This document shows positions 21,168 through 60,491 of a stretch of 64,000 bases of DNA, piece after piece. Origin of the DNA: Gammaproteobacteria bacterium (GTDB lineage Bacteria; Pseudomonadota; Gammaproteobacteria; Ga0077536); NCBI GenBank assembly GCA_963662545.2, contig CAXXLL010000003.1:800001-864000 (forward strand), written 5' to 3'. A program made the translations under genes and the position numbers. Positions within the stretch are counted from its first letter, which is position 1. Each line of letters starts with the position of its first letter. The notes under the pieces were generated by a model. The model was given only the letters and a program-made list of their open reading frames with translations, was not told where the DNA came from and did not search any database.

Positions 21168-21394
21168 AGCAGCCTGTCGGACTTAGGGAATCGTAGCGAG
21201 GCGATTGGGAGAGCGGTCTGAGAGGTGTCATGGTTTGAGACGAATAGTGGGGCAGTTTAACGAAAAATTCGTCGGGAACGAATTTTCGCGTAGCCCCGTA
21301 GGGGTGAAGCGCATGGATGCGCTGAACAAAACCATGGCGCATCTGGACCGCTATCCCAACGCCGTAGCAGATTTCCTAAGTCCGACAGGCTGCT
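21168..21394 (+). mobile_element. MITE family A, copy 1 (with a 65-bp internal insertion)
   Basis: Terminal inverted repeats AGCAGCCTGTCGGACTTAGG / CCTAAGTCCGACAGGCTGCT; homologous to the copies at 32334 and 39580. Confidence 0.9.
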
Positions 21395-21404
21395 AGAGCC
21401 TACG

Positions 21405-54923: not shown

Positions 54924-56180
54924 ATGAATCTGACTGAACTCAAGCAAAAACCCGCGTCCGAACTCGTAAATATAGCGGACGACATGGGCCTCGACGGTGT
55001 CGCCCGTGCACGTAAGCAGGACGTCATATTCGGCATCCTCAAAGCGCACGCCAAGAAAGGGGAAGATATCTCCGGCGACGGCGTGCTCGAAATCCTGCAG
55101 GATGGTTTCGGATTTCTGCGCTCGGCTGATTGTTCCTATCTGGCCGGACCGGACGACATCTACGTGTCGCCGAGCCAGATTCGCAGATTCAGTCTCCGAA
55201 CCGGCGACACAATCTCCGGCAAAATCCGGCCGCCGAAAGACGGCGAGCGGTACTTCGCACTGTTGAAAGTGGGTGAAATCAACTTCGAGCCGCCGGAAAA
55301 CGCAAAGAACAAGGTTTTATTCGAAAATCTAACACCGCTGTTTCCACAGGAGCGTCTTAAGCTCGAACTCGGAAATGGCAGCACTGAGGATTTGACACCC
55401 AGGATCATCGACCTGGCGTCGCCGATCGGAAGAGGCCAGCGCGGTCTGGTGATCTCACCGCCCAAGGCCGGTAAAACGATGATGCTGCAGGGTATTGCCC
55501 ATTCAATCGAGATCAATCATCCCGATTGCTTTCTCATCGTGTTGCTCATCGACGAACGTCCTGAAGAAGTTACGGAAATGCAGCGCTCGGTACGCGGTGA
55601 AGTAGTCTCGAGTACCTTCGACGAACCCGCCAGCCGCCACGTGCAGGTGGCGGAAATGGTCATCGAGAAAGCCAAGCGCCTGGTCGAGCACAAGCGCGAC
55701 GTAGTCATCGTGCTGGATTCGATCACGCGGCTGGCCCGCGCCTACAACACAGTCGTTCCTTCGTCGGGTAAGGTGCTGACGGGCGGTGTCGATGCGAATG
55801 CGCTGCAGCGCCCGAAGCGCTTTTTCGGCGCAGCGAGAAACATTGAGGAAGGCGGCAGCTTGACGATCATGGCCACGGCACTCGTCGATACGGGTTCGCG
55901 CATGGATGACGTCATCTACGAAGAGTTCAAGGGCACGGGCAACATGGAAATTCATCTCGATCGCAAGATCTCCGAGAAGCGAGTATTCCCGGCCGTCAAC
56001 ATCAATCGCTCTGGTACCCGGAAAGAAGAAATCTTAACCAGGCCCGATGAACTTCAGAAAATTTGGATCTTGCGGAAATTGCTCCATCCGATGGAAGAAG
56101 TCACCGCGATGGAATTCCTGATTGAGAGGCTGAAAGCCACCAAAACCAATGCCGAATTCTTCGACGCGATGAAGCGCTGA
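54924..56180 (+). CDS. rho: Transcription termination factor Rho
   Basis: [30 protein letters not shown]. Confidence 0.98.
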
Positions 56181-56203
56181 GCGCGTAGAATCTAGGGAAC
56201 CTT

Positions 56204-57626
56204 CATAGGTTAGTTCTTAAGCGGCCGCATGAACATGCTGAAGGCCGAGCTTGAGTCGTCCCGAAATGCAATCGCGGTCAGGTTTTGCGCGCTGAGCGTT
56301 GCTGGCCAAATAGCGCAACGCGTGTTCGAGCGGTCGGTGTAAAGAGCGGGGCCGATGGATAAGCGTATGGAGAATGGGACCGAGCACGTGATGAATGCAC
56401 TTGGCCGCGGTATGAGTCGAGATGGCGACGTTCAACCAGCGCTCGGTGACATGAGCGCAATAGCGCTGCAGCGTTGCGGCGCATAGTGCGGCCCAGATAA
56501 GCCCTTCGGCGATGTGCGGGTTGGCGGTATCAAAGGCGTGTAGATTGGCGTAAGACTTCCACTCTTTGAATAGCAGCTCGACCTGCCAGCGTAATCGATA
56601 CGCGTCGCTAATATGCTCGGGCGTAAAGGTGGTGGCGTCGAGATTGGTGATGAGATAACGAGGTGCTGCACCTTTTTTAAGGTTGGGGTGCACGACTAAA
56701 CGACAGGTCCAGGGTCCCTGCACGCCGTCGAATTGCACGACCATGTCGAGGCAATCGAAGCGCTTTAAGGTCGATGCCACCGCTTTCAATCGCTGCTTGT
56801 CAAAGCGTTTGACCCGCCGCCCATCGGCGCGACGAGCGGCAACGATCAGCGGATTGATACCTTGACCCGCGCGCACGATGAAATAGCCGCCGGCGGTGTC
56901 GAGCGCTTCAAAGTAAGGCCGCGCGAAGTAGCCACGGTCGGCCAGCAGCAAACCACCAGCGACCTCTTCAACGGCCGGCAAGAACTGCCGCTCTGCTGAG
57001 CTGTCAGGGCTGAGTACGACCTCGTTCAGGGTCTCACTGAGCAGGTCGAGATCGGCATGGAGCTCTACCGCGGCGGGACTCACGGTCGTGAAGCGACCGG
57101 GAAAGCTGTCCTTCAGCGCCGGTTTTAACGCAAACGAGGTGCCGTCCTGGATGCGGATGTGGTCAAACTGCGCAAATGGGCTGTTGGGTTCGAATCGGAG
57201 GACATCGCAGGCCAGGCCATTGAGCAATTCGCTTAGCAGCGCTTGCATAAACATCGGAAACTGTTTTTTGGCGAGCTGATTATGAAACGGTTTGTAGCGC
57301 ACCGTGGTCGAGCACAGCGCATTGAAAGCGCGTTGAATATCAGCGATACAGCTCGCTGAGTGCCCGGCGAAGCTTTCGATTAGGCTTACCGCTAAACGGA
57401 ACGGCGTGACCTCCCTTTCTCGGCGACAGAATCGCGTTGCACGCCCCAAGTCGTTGAGCGTACGCTCGCCTAGCGTGCGTTTTAACTGCCGGCTCACTGT
57501 GCTAATTTCGCTGTGCTTCATCCGATACTCCCAGATCACGAAGTCGATTGGTGTTGATTTCATGATCTGATCGGATGGAGCGCTTTTGGTTCCCTCTTTT
57601 CAACGGCTTATAAGATCCGACCTATG
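56204..57626 (-). mobile_element. IS4-family insertion sequence, 1423 bp
   Basis: TIRs CATAGGTTAGTTCTT / CATAGGTCGGATCTT (reverse complement); 10-bp target duplication AGGGAACCTT at 56194-56203 and 57627-57636. Confidence 0.9.
56217..57563 (-). CDS. IS4-family DDE transposase (start could be 57521)
   Basis: QDGT, LADRGYF, YRLRWQVELLFKEWKS (YREK signature). Confidence 0.93.
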   Translation of the reverse strand: MKSTPIDFVIWEYRMKHSEISTVSRQLKRTLGERTLNDLGRATRFCRREREVTPFRLAVSLIESFAGHSASCIADIQRAFNALCSTTVRYKPFHNQLAKKQFPMFMQALLSELLNGLACDVLRFEPNSPFAQFDHIRIQDGTSFALKPALKDSFPGRFTTVSPAAVELHADLDLLSETLNEVVLSPDSSAERQFLPAVEEVAGGLLLADRGYFARPYFEALDTAGGYFIVRAGQGINPLIVAARRADGRRVKRFDKQRLKAVASTLKRFDCLDMVVQFDGVQGPWTCRLVVHPNLKKGAAPRYLITNLDATTFTPEHISDAYRLRWQVELLFKEWKSYANLHAFDTANPHIAEGLIWAALCAATLQRYCAHVTERWLNVAISTHTAAKCIHHVLGPILHTLIHRPRSLHRPLEHALRYLASNAQRAKPDRDCISGRLKLGLQHVHAAA

Positions 57627-57658
57627 AGGGAACCTTAACTTTATATCTTTTATCTAAA

Positions 57659-58256
57659 CGGCTGCCATCCATGGCGGTACGTTCCCGGCTTCGTTGTGCT
57701 CCAGCCCGACCATCCCTGGTCGGTCGTTCGCTCCTGCCCGAGCAGTGCTCGGGCTCGACGCTTCGCGTCGACCGTCACTCACGGACTTTGATGGGGTCGC
57801 CATCTTAATGGTTCAGCGGCTGCCATCCATGGCGGTACGTTCCCGACTTCGTTGTGCTCCAGCCCGACCATCCCTGGTCGGTCGTTCGCTCCTGCCCGAG
57901 CAGTGCTCGGGCTCGACGCTTCGCGTCGACCGTCGCTCACGGACTTTGATGGGGTCGCCATCCTATTTGTTCAGCGGCTGCCATCCATGGCGGTACGTTC
58001 CCGACTTCGTTGCGCTCCAGCCCGACCATCCCTGGTCGGTCGTTCGCTCCTGCCCGAGCAGTGCTCGGGCTCGACGCTTCGCGTCGACCGTCGCTCACGG
58101 ACTTTGATGGGGTCGCCATCCTATTTGTTCAGCGGCTGCCATCCATGGCGGTACGTTCCCGACTTCGTTGTGCTCCAGCCCGACCATCCCTGGTCGGTCG
58201 TTCGCTCCTGCCCGAGCAGTGCTCGGGCTCGACGCTTCGCGTCGACCGTCGCTCAC
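57659..58256 (-). repeat. Tandem array with 158-bp period (four 124-bp cores and three 34-bp linkers), hairpin-rich
   Basis: Units start at 57659, 57817, 57975 and 58133 and differ by a few substitutions. Confidence 0.95.
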
Positions 58257-58597
58257 CCCGGTGGCCAGCCGAACTTTCTCCCGCCGAGCACGTGGATATG
58301 CAGATGAAACACGCTCTGCCCCACCGCAGCACCATTGTTTACGACCAGACGAAAAGCGTCGGCATACCCTTCAGTCGTCGCAATTTCGCCGCATTTCACC
58401 AGCAAATGGCCCAGCAAACCGGCATCGTCTTCGTCGGCCTCGACTACAGTTGGAATGGGTTTTTTGGGGCACACCAGAATGTGCATGGGTGCTTGCGGGT
58501 TGACGTCCCTGAAGGCGATGCAGCGCTCGTCCTCAAAGAGGATATCGGCCGGTATCTCGCGCGCGATGATCTTTTCAAAGAGCGTCATTTCAGACAT
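58253..58597 (-). CDS. HIT-family nucleotide-binding protein (HinT-like)
   Basis: FEKII.REIPA, GQSVFHLHIHVLGGR...WPPG. Confidence 0.94.
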   Translation of the reverse strand: MSEMTLFEKIIAREIPADILFEDERCIAFRDVNPQAPMHILVCPKKPIPTVVEADEDDAGLLGHLLVKCGEIATTEGYADAFRLVVNNGAAVGQSVFHLHIHVLGGRKFGWPPG

Positions 58598-59174
58598 ACG
58601 AACGGCCTCCTCTATGCGGGATCAGGACCGCCTGTTGTCCTTCGCGCACGATATCGCCGAGATGGAGTCCAAAGTCGTTTTTCTTGCGATCACTAAAAAA
58701 AAACTCGAGGGTGTGCGTAATCGTAGGAAAGGCCAGCTCCGACCATGGGATTTCCTGTTCATGATAGAGCTTGCATTCCAGACTTTCGCTGCCGGGAGAA
58801 AATTCCAGGGTGGGCAAAACCGCGTTAAACATCATATAGACCTGATTGATCTGCGGAAGATTGAAAACCGCGAACAAATCCAGAATTTCGACCTGCGTGG
58901 ACGCCTCCTCCAGAGTTTCACGTGCCGCCGCTTCCACGGTCGTCTCGCCGTTCTCCATGAAGCCGGCCGGGAGAGTCCACCATCCATAACGCGGCTCTAT
59001 CGCGCGCTTACACAACAGCACTTGATCGCCCCAGATGGGGATGCAGCCGGCGACAATTTTCGGATTTTCGTAGAAGATCTCTCCGCATGCTTCGCAAACG
59101 TGGCGCTGACGGTTGTCATCATCCGGAATCCGCCACGCCATGCGATCCGAACCGCACTTACTGCAGAAATTCAA
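58590..59174 (-). CDS. Nudix hydrolase with N-terminal zinc ribbon
   Basis: TTG start (M)NFCSKCG...CEACG; Nudix box GFMENGET..EAAARETLEEA. Confidence 0.9.
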   Translation of the reverse strand: MNFCSKCGSDRMAWRIPDDDNRQRHVCEACGEIFYENPKIVAGCIPIWGDQVLLCKRAIEPRYGWWTLPAGFMENGETTVEAAARETLEEASTQVEILDLFAVFNLPQINQVYMMFNAVLPTLEFSPGSESLECKLYHEQEIPWSELAFPTITHTLEFFFSDRKKNDFGLHLGDIVREGQQAVLIPHRGGRSYV

Positions 59175-59800
59175 AAAAACTCTTCCAACCCGCCGCTGGA
59201 ATCGATCGCTTCGTGGATCGAAGGCCATAAGGTATCGAGGATAAGCGGCTGGAATTCCGCCGTCGGGTGCAGCCCGTCAGCTTGAAACGCATTCTGGTTG
59301 GCCGCAAATTGCTTGAGCATGAATGGTGCATATAGGATTTCTTGATCGGCACCCAGTTGATCGAAGATCTCCTCGAATGCATCCGTGTAACGCGGTCCGT
59401 AATTGGGCGGAATGCGCACCTTGACCAAGACCACTGACGCTCCGACGAGTTTTGCGGCATCGATGGCCTGCGTAAGGTTTTTCTTGATTTCGGCGACCTT
59501 GATGCCGCGCAATCCGTCGTTTGCGCCGAGGGCGATGACTACCGTGCCGGGATTGTGCTTTACGATCAGGCTGCCGAGGCGACGGGCACCGCCCCTGGTT
59601 GTATCACCACTGATACTGGCATTCACGACCTGTTGTCGATAGCCTTCTTCGTGCATTCGTTTCTGCAACAGGCTGGGCCAGCTTTCTTCAATACTGATTC
59701 CGTAACCGGCACTCAAACTGTCACCCAGTATTAATATCGGTTTTTTGTCGGCCGCGGCCGCCGCGAATCCTATTCCCCAGATCAGCAAAAATACAAACAT
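59171..59800 (-). CDS. tesA: Arylesterase / acyl-CoA thioesterase I (SGNH hydrolase; start uncertain)
   Basis: GDSLSAGYG, NASISGDTT, LGANDGLRG, DGLHP; signal peptide. Confidence 0.9.
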   Translation of the reverse strand: MFVFLLIWGIGFAAAAADKKPILILGDSLSAGYGISIEESWPSLLQKRMHEEGYRQQVVNASISGDTTRGGARRLGSLIVKHNPGTVVIALGANDGLRGIKVAEIKKNLTQAIDAAKLVGASVVLVKVRIPPNYGPRYTDAFEEIFDQLGADQEILYAPFMLKQFAANQNAFQADGLHPTAEFQPLILDTLWPSIHEAIDSSGGLEEFF

Positions 59801-59819
59801 GAACGACCTAGGCGACGAT

Positions 59820-60491
59820 ATGGGCCACTTGATCATCGATGCGGCGGGTGTATCCAAGGTGGTCAGCGCTCCAAACGGTAAATTACGCATCCTCGATGAT
59901 ATCAATTTTGCCGTCAGGCCTCGCGAACGAGTTGCCATAACGGGCGTCTCGGGCTCGGGAAAATCGACCATGTTGGGTTTACTGGCGGGCCTCGATATCG
60001 CGTCCGAGGGTTGTGTTCGGGTGCTCGATCATTCGCTGTCGGAAATGAGCGAAGACGAAAGAGCCCTGCTCCGCCGGCACCATATCGGGTTCGTATTCCA
60101 GGCATTTCACCTGATCAGCAGTTTTACGGCGGTCGAAAACGTGATGCTACCGCTCGAACTTAAAGGTGAACCCGACGCTTTAGACAAGGCCCATCGGATG
60201 CTGGAACGCGTTGGGCTCTCCGAACGAGCGCGACACTTTCCCCGGCAAATGTCCGGCGGCGAACAACAACGCGTCGCCCTCGCGCGGGCATTCTGCACGT
60301 TTCCGGACATTTTGTTCGCGGATGAACCGACGGGAAACCTCGATGCAAAAACTGCGAACACGGTGGTGGATCTATTGTTTGATCTCAACGCAGAATTCGG
60401 CACCACATTGATCGTCGTGACGCATGACAGTCATCTCGCCGAGCGCTGCGATTGGCGAATAAGCCTGGCTGGTGGACGGATTCTTGCCTGA
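59820..60491 (+). CDS. ABC transporter ATP-binding protein (YbbA-like; start 59799 or 59820)
   Basis: GVSGSGKST, MSGGEQQRVALARA, ADEPTGNLD. Confidence 0.9.
   Translation: MGHLIIDAAGVSKVVSAPNGKLRILDDINFAVRPRERVAITGVSGSGKSTMLGLLAGLDIASEGCVRVLDHSLSEMSEDERALLRRHHIGFVFQAFHLISSFTAVENVMLPLELKGEPDALDKAHRMLERVGLSERARHFPRQMSGGEQQRVALARAFCTFPDILFADEPTGNLDAKTANTVVDLLFDLNAEFGTTLIVVTHDSHLAERCDWRISLAGGRILA

What the first reader, a model, noticed from the sequence alone, without database searches (positions are those of the whole stretch)
57659..58256. 158-bp tandem array dense in CsrA/RsmA-type GGA hairpins: possible repeat-built Csr sponge
Seen: four near-identical 124-bp cores separated by 34-bp linkers. 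On the minus strand (the sense of the upstream tesA-nudix-hit genes) each core has two stem-loops with GGA in the loop, CGACC-AGGGAU-GGUCG and GCC-AUGGAU-GGC. Each core also has CAGGAG, CUGGAG and CGGGAA, and two further stable hairpins (GCCCGAGCA/UGCUCGGGC and UCGACGC-GAA-GCGUCGA). Hand count: 22 GGA on the minus strand versus 3 on the plus strand. Established: CsrA/RsmA binds ANGGA in hairpin loops, and CsrB/RsmZ-type sRNAs act by carrying many such sites. Inference: this may be a 3'-UTR or stand-alone sponge whose capacity changes with repeat copy number. It could instead be a mobile structured repeat that recruits CsrA. The units differ by point changes, which argues against a pure assembly artefact.
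Basis: partly seen in the sequence, partly recalled or inferred. Interest (0 to 1): 0.8.

Follow-up and report, generated by a model that had tools for sequence, protein, structure and literature searches.

The report
Tandem-amplified GGA-hairpin mobile repeat
The array is four tandem copies of a small four-hairpin mobile repeat that landed behind the HIT gene and was then amplified; its loops look like binding sites for the regulator CsrA, but binding has not been tested.

Summary
Window 57659-58256 is a 158-bp tandem array of 3.8 copies, 98% alike, with 22 GGA on the minus strand and 3 on the plus strand. Independent short-read contigs support the junctions and about 3-4 copies.

It is not a stand-alone Csr sRNA gene. 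The 124-bp core belongs to a modular hairpin-repeat family with 22 model hits in this genome.
- A congener has one copy at the same rho/HIT spacer. Three other relatives have an empty spacer of 26-38 nt. So the element was inserted and later amplified four-fold here, with a 6-bp direct repeat (TCGCTC) at the junction.
- In other genera the family lies 12-22 nt upstream of tRNA genes (about 100 nt at one tRNA-Ser), always in the GGA sense (8 of 8). It often follows an exact 19-nt copy of the tRNA 5' end. This mirrors E. coli tRNA-linked repeats.
- The hairpins covary and evolve more slowly than neutral sites (1 of 64 against 8 of 60 changes).
- The loops keep GGA in 50 and 42 of 56 copies.

On the HIT-operon strand the array would show eight CsrA-type hairpins. 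CsrA binding is plausible (about 0.25-0.3) but untested.

This scan has already noted tRNA-linked GGA-hairpin repeats on other DNA.

The parts
57659..58256 (-). Tandem array. It has three 158-bp units (57659-57816, 57817-57974, 57975-58132) and a fourth 124-bp core (58133-58256). The GGA-rich sense is the minus strand.
57820..57835 (-). Hairpin H1 of unit 2, with loop A-U-GGA-U on the minus strand. The same hairpin is at 57662-57677, 57978-57993 and 58136-58151.
   Evidence: for coordinates. for pairing and one compensatory pair. GGA is kept in 50 of 56 family rows.
57864..57881 (-). Hairpin H2 of unit 2, with loop A-G-GGA-U on the minus strand. The same hairpin is at 57706-57723, 58022-58039 and 58180-58197.
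   Evidence: two compensatory pairs. GGA is kept in 42 of 56 family rows.
57894..57929 (-). Hairpins H3 (57894-57912) and H4 (57913-57929) of unit 2. They repeat in the other units at 57736-57771, 58052-58087 and 58210-58245. This is the 3' module that defines the 'type B' subfamily.
   Evidence: three compensatory pairs. A diverged mosaic of these modules in G001 is shown.
57941..57974 (.). 34-bp linker (also at 57783-57816 and 58099-58132). It corresponds to the rho-side flank of the single copy in congener G002. It carries a weak terminator-like hairpin on the plus strand.
   Evidence: alignment with G002. (terminator-like sites at 57948-57962 and 58106-58120).
57933..57938 (.). TCGCTC at the end of each core (also at 58091-58096 and 58249-58254, and as TCACTC at 57775-57780). 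The same hexamer lies in the rho-side flank in G002. It is the likely microhomology that seeded the first duplication.
   Evidence: The seeding role is inferred.
56202..57628 (-). Insertion sequence (DDE_Tnp_1 transposase ORF 56217-57563) inserted between rho and the array. The genome holds about 10 full copies. The direct repeat GGGAACCT lies at both ends.
54924..56180 (+). rho, convergent with the HIT operon. It was the ancestral neighbour of the array before the IS insertion.
58253..59971 (-). GDSL lipase (59171-59971), NUDIX (58590-59228) and HIT (58253-58597). The array lies directly 3' of HIT in their sense.

Best explanation
The array is a recent four-fold tandem amplification, specific to this lineage, of a mobile structured repeat.

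History of the locus:
1. A 124-bp four-hairpin element with a short tail was inserted into the very short convergent spacer between rho and HIT. This happened in the common ancestor of this genome and one congener.
2. In this genome a 158-bp segment (core plus 34 bp of flank) was duplicated, probably by slippage between two TCGCTC hexamers. It was then expanded by unequal recombination.
3. An IS later landed beside it.

The family:
- It is modular. Two hairpins with GGA-bearing loops are joined to exchangeable 3' modules.
- In this genus it lies at about 20 intergenic sites, often bracketed by inverted REP palindromes.
- In other genera it lies just upstream of tRNA genes in the tRNA sense, behind a 19-nt copy of the tRNA 5' end. 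That is the mirror image of E. coli tRNA-linked repeats.

How it most likely works:
- The hairpins are kept by selection, so the element most likely acts as RNA.
- Here that RNA would be the structured 3' UTR of the tesA-like/nudix/HIT operon.
- As RNA it would show eight A-N-GGA-U loops, which may bind CsrA. That would be a property of the repeat family. The array is not a purpose-built sponge gene.

Shown: the repeat, the family, the insertion, the amplification, the covariation and the slower change in hairpins. Inferred: the slippage mechanism, transcription from the HIT side and any protein binding.
For: Family and history of the locus:
- Unit positions 4-73 match about 20 other sites in the genome at 71-88% identity. 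nhmmer and a covariance model give 15 full copies and 22 hits.
- Congener G002 has one 124-bp core (93% identical) plus a linker-like flank between HIT and rho, and no IS.
- G001, G019 and G004 have the same convergent gene pair with spacers of about 26-38 nt and no element.
- G001 has at least 7 type-B cores elsewhere, including a diverged mosaic cluster.
- TCGCTC lies at both borders of the duplicated segment.
- Units are 97-100% identical, while the G000/G002 copies are 93% identical. The amplification is therefore younger than that split.
- REP palindromes bracket many copies. The REP motif occurs 62 times exactly and 174 times within 2 mismatches. The genome has 7 Y1 transposase matches.

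tRNA link:
- 8 of 8 tRNA-adjacent copies are in the GGA sense of the tRNA. H1 ends 12-22 nt before the tRNA, or about 100 nt for tRNA-Ser.
- Several of these loci (Phe, Thr, Met, Thr, Lys, and a tRNA-Arg 5' end in G050) carry an identical 19-nt copy of the tRNA 5' end.

Selection:
- G000 against G002: 1 change in 64 hairpin nucleotides and 8 in 60 outside them.
- Third codon positions of HIT and rho differ at 59 of 415 sites.
- Binomial P = 6e-4; Fisher P = 0.015.
- 7 of 33 pairs show compensatory changes, and 0 of 500 shuffles reach this.
Against: - No raw RNA reads were available, so transcription and its strand are not shown.
- Relatives do without the element at this spacer, so it is not needed for rho or HIT expression.
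- The slow change of the hairpins rests on one orthologous pair and 9 substitutions. Gene conversion between copies could mimic it.
- Family copies between co-directional genes show no sense bias: 5 in one orientation and 5 in the other. A further 14 lie in convergent spacers, 3 in divergent ones and 7 are unclear, of 34 loci. These come from crude ORF calls. The lack of bias fits a DNA element inserted either way.
- The slippage mechanism is inferred from a 6-bp repeat only.
- The rho-side flank of unit 1 differs from the other linkers and is unexplained.
Confidence: 0.6

Rival explanations
1. A selected CsrA sponge. The array, read from the HIT operon or from its own start, titrates CsrA through its eight hairpin-loop GGA sites and other GGA motifs. 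The four-fold amplification was kept because it raises that capacity.
For: - The loops read A-N-GGA-U with the N position free. In the plus-strand reading of the family rows N is A 23, C 18, T 6, G 3 in H1 and T 14, C 10, A 9, G 9 in H2. From recall, this is the degenerate position of the CsrA consensus (Dubey 2005, SELEX RUACARGGAUGU; not read here).
- GGA is kept while stems covary, even in distant genera.
- The GGA sense is the tRNA sense in 8 of 8 tRNA-linked copies, and the HIT sense here.
- The two GGA loops of a unit are about 45 nt apart. From recall, this is within the range one CsrA dimer can bridge.
- csrA is present. No canonical Csr/Rsm sRNA was found over cut-off.
- The array ranks third to fifth in the genome for GGA in hairpin loops.
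- Precedent: E. coli repeats of the tRNA-linked family behind rRNA operons bind CsrA in vitro (PMC8144298, passages read).
- One RNA-library contig lies wholly inside the array at 58016-58172. It cannot show strand or exclude DNA.
Against: - No promoter-like site, and no terminator-like site on the minus strand.
- No Rfam Csr/Rsm hit.
- 6 GGA per 158 nt is, from recall, a lower density than in CsrB or RsmZ.
- H1 is weak on the minus strand, because a conserved U.G pair on the plus strand becomes C.A (40 of 55 rows).
- The array is absent from the congener, and the spacer is empty in other relatives.
- Orientation relative to co-directional genes is 5 against 5.
- 7 of the 8 genomes that carry the family have csrA. 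That is no more than the background of 45 of 61.
- Another repeat of this genome is denser: a 66-bp unit with three GGA hairpins.
Confidence: 0.25
2. A selfish or neutral DNA-level repeat. The hairpins matter only as single-stranded DNA or cruciform signals for the machinery that moves or copies the element, for example a REP-associated tyrosine transposase or a tRNA-targeting recombination. The array is a neutral by-product with no RNA role.
For: - Insertion polymorphism between relatives.
- REP brackets and Y1 transposase genes.
- Exact duplicated tRNA 5' ends at element borders.
- Module shuffling and tandem duplication at several loci.
- No sense bias between co-directional genes.
- Wobble pairs inside stems favour neither strand: 7 cells against 10.
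- Other micro-elements of this genome also carry GGA-loop hairpins inside terminal inverted repeats.
Against: - Hairpins change more slowly than linkers and third codon positions after insertion, at a locus where the element sits fixed.
- The six differences between units avoid the hairpins.
- No bias with replication direction: 8 against 10. Such a bias is common for elements moved as single strands.
- The array core has no REP at its ends.
Confidence: 0.13
3. The feature is not real or not non-coding: an assembly artefact, a CRISPR-like array or a repeat protein.
For: Near-identical units can come from mis-assembly. Several ORFs of 53-228 aa cross the array.
Against: - Junction-spanning contigs without differences in two runs from different studies, with depth ratios of 3.3 and 1.7.
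- Point differences between units.
- The linkers are near-identical, so they are not CRISPR spacers.
- 158 is not a multiple of 3, so no frame repeats.
Confidence: 0.02

Closest known systems
E. coli tRNA-linked repeats (TLRs; RtT RNA, Rfam RF00391; RrA/RrB/RrF behind rRNA operons)
   Same: - Small structured repeats attached to stable-RNA genes, one to several in tandem.
- Each carries an exact 18-19 nt copy of an end of the adjacent tRNA.
- They are co-oriented with the tRNA.
- Some members carry GGA loops and bind CsrA in vitro (PMC8144298, passages read).

Here a 19-nt tRNA copy is found at several loci, and 8 of 8 tRNA-adjacent copies are co-oriented with the tRNA.
   Different: - The copied piece is the tRNA 5' end, and the element lies upstream of the tRNA. 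In E. coli it is the 3' end and downstream.
- No match to RF00391 on the array, the family loci or this genome. The only hit is a sub-threshold 33.5-bit match to a separate element behind tRNA-Ser in G050.
- In this genus most copies, including this array, are not in tRNA operons at all.
REP / BIME / REPIN extragenic palindromes moved by RAYT (Y1) transposases
   Same: - Extragenic, mostly at gene 3' ends. 14 of 34 loci are in convergent spacers.
- Hairpin-built and mosaic, prone to local tandem clusters.
- REP palindromes with a GTAGGAG head flank many copies, and Y1 transposase genes are present.
- From recall, REPs stabilise upstream mRNA 3' ends.
   Different: - The unit is a 124-bp four-hairpin module, not a 20-35 nt palindrome.
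- The array core has no REP ends.
- Loop sequences, not only stems, are conserved.
- The tRNA link is not a REP feature.
CsrB/CsrC and RsmX/Y/Z CsrA-sequestering sRNAs
   Same: Many GGA motifs, several in hairpin loops, on one strand. The architecture is repetitive. csrA is in the genome.
   Different: - No own promoter or terminator.
- No Rfam match.
- Lower GGA density.
- Built from a dispersed mobile repeat and not conserved as a gene.
TwoAYGGAY RNA motif (Rfam RF01731)
   Same: From recall, two hairpins whose loops read AYGGAY, proposed to bind CsrA-like proteins. The family's H1 and H2 loops read A-N-GGA-U.
   Different: No match in this genome. That search rang in no control genome either, so it is uninformative. 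The present family has extra hairpins, a tRNA link and REP brackets.

Membership tests
CsrB/RsmZ-type CsrA sponge sRNA | Many GGA motifs on one strand, several exposed in hairpin loops | tested here: met
   22 GGA on the minus strand against 3 on the plus. H1 and H2 loops carry GGA in each of the 4 units. 9 GGA-in-loop sites per 600 nt, rank third to fifth in the genome. H1 is weak on this strand.
CsrB/RsmZ-type CsrA sponge sRNA | Independent gene with its own promoter and intrinsic terminator | tested here: not met
   0 promoter-like sites in 55800-59000 (0.9 expected). No terminator-like site on the minus strand within the array. These are consensus scans only.
CsrB/RsmZ-type CsrA sponge sRNA | Similarity to curated Csr/Rsm models | tested here: not met
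   No Rfam hit on 57000-58800 at E up to 10 other than two chance-level hits to unrelated families outside the repeat cores. RsmZ and RsmY best hits in the genome are 20.1 and 21.9 bits, below cut-offs of 44 and 57, and lie elsewhere.
CsrB/RsmZ-type CsrA sponge sRNA | Binds and titrates CsrA; is transcribed | not testable with these tools
   csrA is present. Only assembled contigs of RNA libraries could be laid.
tRNA-linked repeats (TLR / RtT) | Lies in a tRNA or rRNA operon next to the stable RNA gene | tested here: not met
   The array lies between rho and HIT. Other family members do meet this: 8 tRNA-adjacent copies in 6 genomes.
tRNA-linked repeats (TLR / RtT) | Carries an exact 18-19 nt copy of the end of the adjacent tRNA | tested here: inconclusive
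   Several family loci carry an exact 19-nt copy, but of the tRNA 5' end, not the 3' end. The array units carry none.
tRNA-linked repeats (TLR / RtT) | Match to Rfam RF00391 | tested here: not met
   The control E. coli genome rang, so the search worked.
REP / BIME / REPIN | Short extragenic palindromes with a conserved GTAG-type head, in many copies, with a RAYT gene in the genome | tested here: inconclusive
   Such REPs exist (62 exact copies) and bracket many family members, and 7 Y1_Tnp matches are present. The array core itself has no REP ends.
REP / BIME / REPIN | Mosaic clusters of modules, with tandem copy-number change | tested here: met
   This array. The mosaic cluster in G001. Module duplications at four other loci of this genome.
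CRISPR array | Identical repeats separated by unique spacers | tested here: not met
   The 34-bp linkers are near-identical to each other: 3 differences in one, none between the other two.
MITE | Terminal inverted repeats and a short target-site duplication | tested here: not met
   The alignments of the type-B core and its flanks show no terminal inverted repeats or short duplication.

The most novel reading that the evidence does not exclude
The hairpin family is a CsrA-binding RNA module that travels on mobile and tRNA-linked repeats.
- Upstream of tRNA genes it would be released from abundant tRNA precursors as a leader-derived decoy, tying free CsrA to growth rate.
- Inserted behind protein genes it would bring them, or the CsrA pool, under new control.
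- Tandem amplification, as in this four-unit array behind HIT, would tune the dose.

This would make mobile repeats a vehicle for rewiring the Csr system, and give the long-unexplained tRNA-linked repeats a function.
Probability: 0.25. Interest if true: 0.8.

Novelty: new variant of a known kind. Interest (0 to 1): 0.5.

Why it matters
tRNA-linked repeats have been known since 1978 without an accepted function. Only the three rRNA-linked ones in E. coli have been tied to CsrA, and only in vitro (PMC8144298).

Four features together make this family a good test case for whether such repeats are RNA decoys for CsrA:
- covarying hairpins,
- loops that keep GGA,
- slower-than-neutral change after insertion,
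- a fixed sense relative to tRNA genes.

The locus also gives a dated series of states: empty site, single insertion, four-fold array, then an IS beside it. That shows how repeat-built RNA could arise.

If CsrA does not bind, the result is still useful. A GGA-rich hairpin array is then a property of a mobile repeat and should not be annotated as a Csr sRNA.

Tried and rejected
- **Rfam.** Nothing relevant on the array, on dispersed copies or on tRNA-linked copies apart from the tRNAs themselves. The TwoAYGGAY search rang in no control genome, so it says nothing.
- **Strand from wobble pairs.**
  - G.U cells are 56 in the plus-strand sense against 10 in the minus. But 40 are one conserved outer pair of H1 and 9 are loop-closing positions.
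  - Inside the stems the count is 7 against 10. No call is possible.
- **A minus-strand-only closing helix.** RNAalifold predicted one. On its own it has no covariation support: 320 of 500 shuffles reach it.
- **Orientation relative to genes.** 5 against 5 between co-directional genes. The ORF calls are crude.
- **Replication-strand bias.** 8 against 10, so none.
- **csrA co-occurrence.** 7 of 8 family-bearing genomes against 45 of 61 overall. This is uninformative, and G015, which has no csrA match, is a 670-contig assembly.
- **RNA libraries.**
  - X19 had contigs over the IS end and over HIT/nudix but none over the array.
  - X20 had one 157-nt contig inside the array and none on the flanking genes.
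  - Contigs cannot show strand, level or transcription.
- **Type-A 'terminator'.** The dispersed copies of this genus end, in the plus-strand sense, with a hairpin followed by a run of T. The consensus scan did not call it. The G019 copy lacks the T run. I do not use it to set the RNA strand.
- **The 34-bp linker as a hidden tRNA 5' fragment.** It shows no D-arm-like sequence. Rejected by eye.
- **GGA-rich windows elsewhere as the 'true' Csr sRNA.** Most lie in long ORFs. C3:344050 (minus strand) has 14 GGA in 160 nt and was left unresolved.
- **Literature searches.** Searches for CsrA with REP elements, CsrA with tRNA leaders and sponges, repeats upstream of tRNA genes, tRNA-linked repeats, and Acidiferrobacterales with sponge symbionts found no description of this family. 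No supplements were consulted.
Full report
**1. The observation**

Tandem Repeats Finder reports one array at 57659-58256: period 158, 3.8 copies, 98% matches, no indels. That is three 158-bp units and a fourth 124-bp core.
- Unit 1 differs from unit 2 at 5 positions and unit 3 at 1. Unit 4 is identical. None of the six differences lies in a hairpin.
- GGA occurs 22 times on the minus strand and 3 times on the plus strand.
- One unit folds equally well on either strand: -64.0 and -64.1 kcal/mol, z -3.0 and -2.3.
- Plain GGA density is raised but not extreme. The array has 6 per 158 nt, against a genome mean of 2.33 (sd 1.55) per 160 nt, and at least 40 windows have 10 or more.
- For GGA inside a hairpin loop the array has 9 per 600 nt against a mean of 1.3. 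That ranks third to fifth in the genome.
- Contigs of two DNA runs from different studies reproduce the IS/unit-1 junction and the linker junctions without a difference. Depth ratios to the single-copy flank are 3.3 for the core and 1.7 for the linker. One of these runs may be the assembly's own source.

**2. The locus and its history**

The array lies between two convergent transcription units:
- rho (54924-56180, plus strand);
- GDSL lipase, NUDIX and HIT (59971-58253, minus strand). The HIT stop codon overlaps the end of the last core.

An insertion sequence lies at 56202-57628, between rho and the array. It has a DDE transposase, about 10 full copies in the genome and an 8-bp duplication at its ends.

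Relatives show the order of events:
- In congener G002 the same genes flank a single 124-bp core, 93% identical. On the rho side of that core lies a flank that matches the 34-bp linker. There is no IS.
- In congener G001 and in two other genera (G019, G004), rho and HIT are separated by only about 26-38 nt, with no element.

The order was therefore: empty site, insertion of one element in the G000/G002 ancestor, four-fold amplification in this lineage, then an IS insertion. The units are 97-100% identical, which makes the amplification younger than the 93% G000/G002 divergence.

The hexamer TCGCTC lies at the end of the core and, in G002, in the rho-side flank exactly where the duplicated segment begins. 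I infer slippage or illegitimate recombination at this microhomology, followed by unequal crossing-over. The rho-side flank of unit 1 differs from the other linkers and is unexplained.

**3. The family**

Unit positions 4-73 (hairpins H1 and H2) match about 20 other sites in this genome at 71-88% identity.
- A profile finds 15 full-length copies. A covariance model of H1-H2 finds 22 hits.
- Most copies in this genome ('type A') carry a different 3' module from the array ('type B': H3 and H4).
- Many are bracketed by inverted REP palindromes with a GTAGGAG head. That REP motif occurs 62 times exactly and 174 times within 2 mismatches. The genome has 7 Y1-transposase matches.
- Modules are duplicated in tandem at other loci as well. 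G001 has a diverged mosaic cluster of type-B modules.

Distribution:
- The covariance model hits 6 of 61 genomes of the family searched: G000 22, G001 9, G002 6, G015 2, G019 1, G026 2.
- BLAST also finds copies in G049 and G050, which belong to other families of the class.
- An exact-pattern scan found 6 stretches in MAGs whose titles name Acidiferrobacterales, Sulfurifustaceae or unclassified Gamma-/Pseudomonadota.

**4. The tRNA link**

Outside this genus the copies lie next to tRNA genes. Eight copies lie upstream of a tRNA: G000 Val, G001 Lys, G015 Met, G015 Thr, G019 Thr, G026 Thr, G050 Phe and G050 Ser.
- All eight are in the sense in which the loops read GGA.
- H1 ends 12-22 nt before the mature tRNA 5' end, or about 100 nt for tRNA-Ser.
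- At several of these loci the other end of the element abuts an exact 19-nt copy of that tRNA's 5' end, followed by GTGAGC. That hexamer mimics the D-stem sequence TAGAGC of the real tRNA.
- In G050 four copies are interleaved with tRNA-Ser and tRNA-Arg 5' fragments just downstream of csrA, in the csrA sense. Because csrA lies next to this tRNA cluster, the position may be incidental.

This is the mirror image of the E. coli tRNA-linked repeats, which carry 18-19 bp of the tRNA or rRNA 3' end and lie downstream of it. Three of those repeats, behind rRNA operons, bind Hfq and CsrA in vitro (PMC8144298, passages read).

The present family does not match Rfam RtT.

**5. Structure and selection**

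Nine type-B copies aligned in the GGA sense give 33 pairs:
- 98.3% of cells are paired;
- 7 pairs have compensatory changes;
- 0 of 500 shuffles reach this;
- slid controls give 23-40% paired.

Across 56 distinct family rows the loops keep TCC (GGA on the other strand) in 50 rows for H1 and 42 for H2. The next loop position is free. That alignment was fitted to the model, which favours the structure.

Between G000 and G002 the orthologous core has 1 change in 64 hairpin nucleotides and 8 in 60 outside them. Third codon positions of HIT and rho differ at 59 of 415 sites. The binomial P is 6e-4 and Fisher's P is 0.015.

The hairpins therefore look constrained after insertion. This rests on one pair of genomes and 9 substitutions.

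**6. Which strand matters**

I could not settle this from sequence.

For the GGA sense:
- the fixed orientation to tRNA genes (8 of 8);
- the position directly 3' of HIT.

Neutral:
- wobble pairs inside stems, 7 against 10;
- orientation between co-directional genes, 5 against 5, with 14 of 34 loci in convergent spacers where both senses are 3' of a gene;
- no replication-strand bias.

Against the GGA sense:
- a conserved U.G pair strengthens H1 on the other strand;
- H1 is not formed in the single-unit minus-strand fold.

**7. Is it a CsrA sponge?**

For:
- the loop sequence and its free N position;
- conservation with covarying stems;
- about 45 nt between the two loops;
- csrA in the genome;
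- no canonical Csr/Rsm RNA over cut-off;
- the high rank for GGA in loops;
- the E. coli precedent.

Against:
- no promoter or minus-strand terminator;
- no Rfam match;
- moderate GGA density;
- the array is not conserved, and the site is empty in relatives;
- no sense bias of the family in mRNA contexts;
- csrA presence does not track the family (7 of 8 against 45 of 61).

I put selected sponge function at 0.25.

**8. Most likely mechanism**

This is a mobile, modular hairpin repeat with a tRNA-linked origin, spread in this genus partly inside REP brackets. It was inserted behind HIT and amplified by slippage and unequal recombination.

It most likely acts as RNA, here as a structured 3' UTR of the HIT operon. 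From recall, REP-type hairpins protect upstream mRNA and, when close to a stop codon, can lower translation.

On that RNA the GGA loops are exposed and may bind CsrA as a property of the family.
- Shown: the repeat, the family, the insertion, the amplification, the covariation and the hairpin constraint.
- Inferred: the duplication mechanism, transcription and any protein binding.

**9. Novelty**

The kind is known: tRNA-linked repeats, REP/BIME-type mosaics and GGA-hairpin decoys. The variant is new in the following respects, as far as my five literature searches and Rfam show:
- it is linked to the 5' side of the tRNA;
- it is dispersed to protein-gene spacers inside REP brackets;
- it is tandemly amplified behind a protein gene.

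Earlier notes of this scan describe tRNA-linked GGA-hairpin repeats in other genomes. I reached the tRNA link independently, and those notes agree with it.

No supplements were consulted. No raw RNA reads were available.

Noticed in passing
window 21171-21395 (+); also G000 C2:1819557-1819752 and C2:2528583-2528708: A second repeat family with GGA-loop hairpins. Its 66-bp unit carries three hairpins with GGA in or at the loop, and gives 19 BLAST hits at 13 loci. It stands in tandem x3.1 and x2.1 at two loci. The in-window copy sits inside an element of about 225 bp with 23-bp terminal inverted repeats. The x3.1 array gives a weak CsrC hit of 16.7 bits, far below the cut-off. It is denser in GGA hairpins than the array under study. 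After its last hairpin it shares the CTGAACAAA motif that follows H1 in the array.
   Followed up: partly
L016 (G050:C7:1-1720), L019, L047, L048, L053, L054, L065: Exact 19-nt copies of tRNA 5' ends (Phe, Thr, Met, Lys, Arg), followed by GTGAGC, stand at the upstream border of family copies. The intact tRNA follows 12-22 nt after the element. It is not resolved whether this comes from insertion into the D-loop or from duplication.
   Followed up: partly
L016 298-432 (-), G050: A sub-threshold RtT-like element (33.5 bits against a cut-off of 45) lies downstream of tRNA-Ser and ends with the tRNA 3' end. Classical 3'-side tRNA-linked repeats and the 5'-side family therefore coexist at one locus beside csrA.
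   Followed up: no
window 56202-57628: An IS with a DDE_Tnp_1 transposase, about 10 full copies at 94-100% identity, each flanked by a duplication of about 7-8 bp. The copies look young.
   Followed up: partly
G000 C3:343930-344330 (minus strand; outside the window): The most GGA-rich 160-nt window of the genome (14 GGA). No long ORF lies on that strand, and it follows a run of T. It could be a real Csr-type RNA or a low-complexity coding stretch.
   Followed up: no
G000 C2:471870-472240: A truncated tRNA-like gene that ARAGORN does not call. Around it are two family copies, duplicated H1 modules and repeated 21-nt tRNA 5' fragments.
   Followed up: partly
window 56181-56201 and 57629-57658: With the IS removed, the 45 nt between the rho stop and unit 1 are AT-rich. 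They match neither the linkers nor the G002 flank, nor anything else in the genome. Their origin is unknown.
   Followed up: partly
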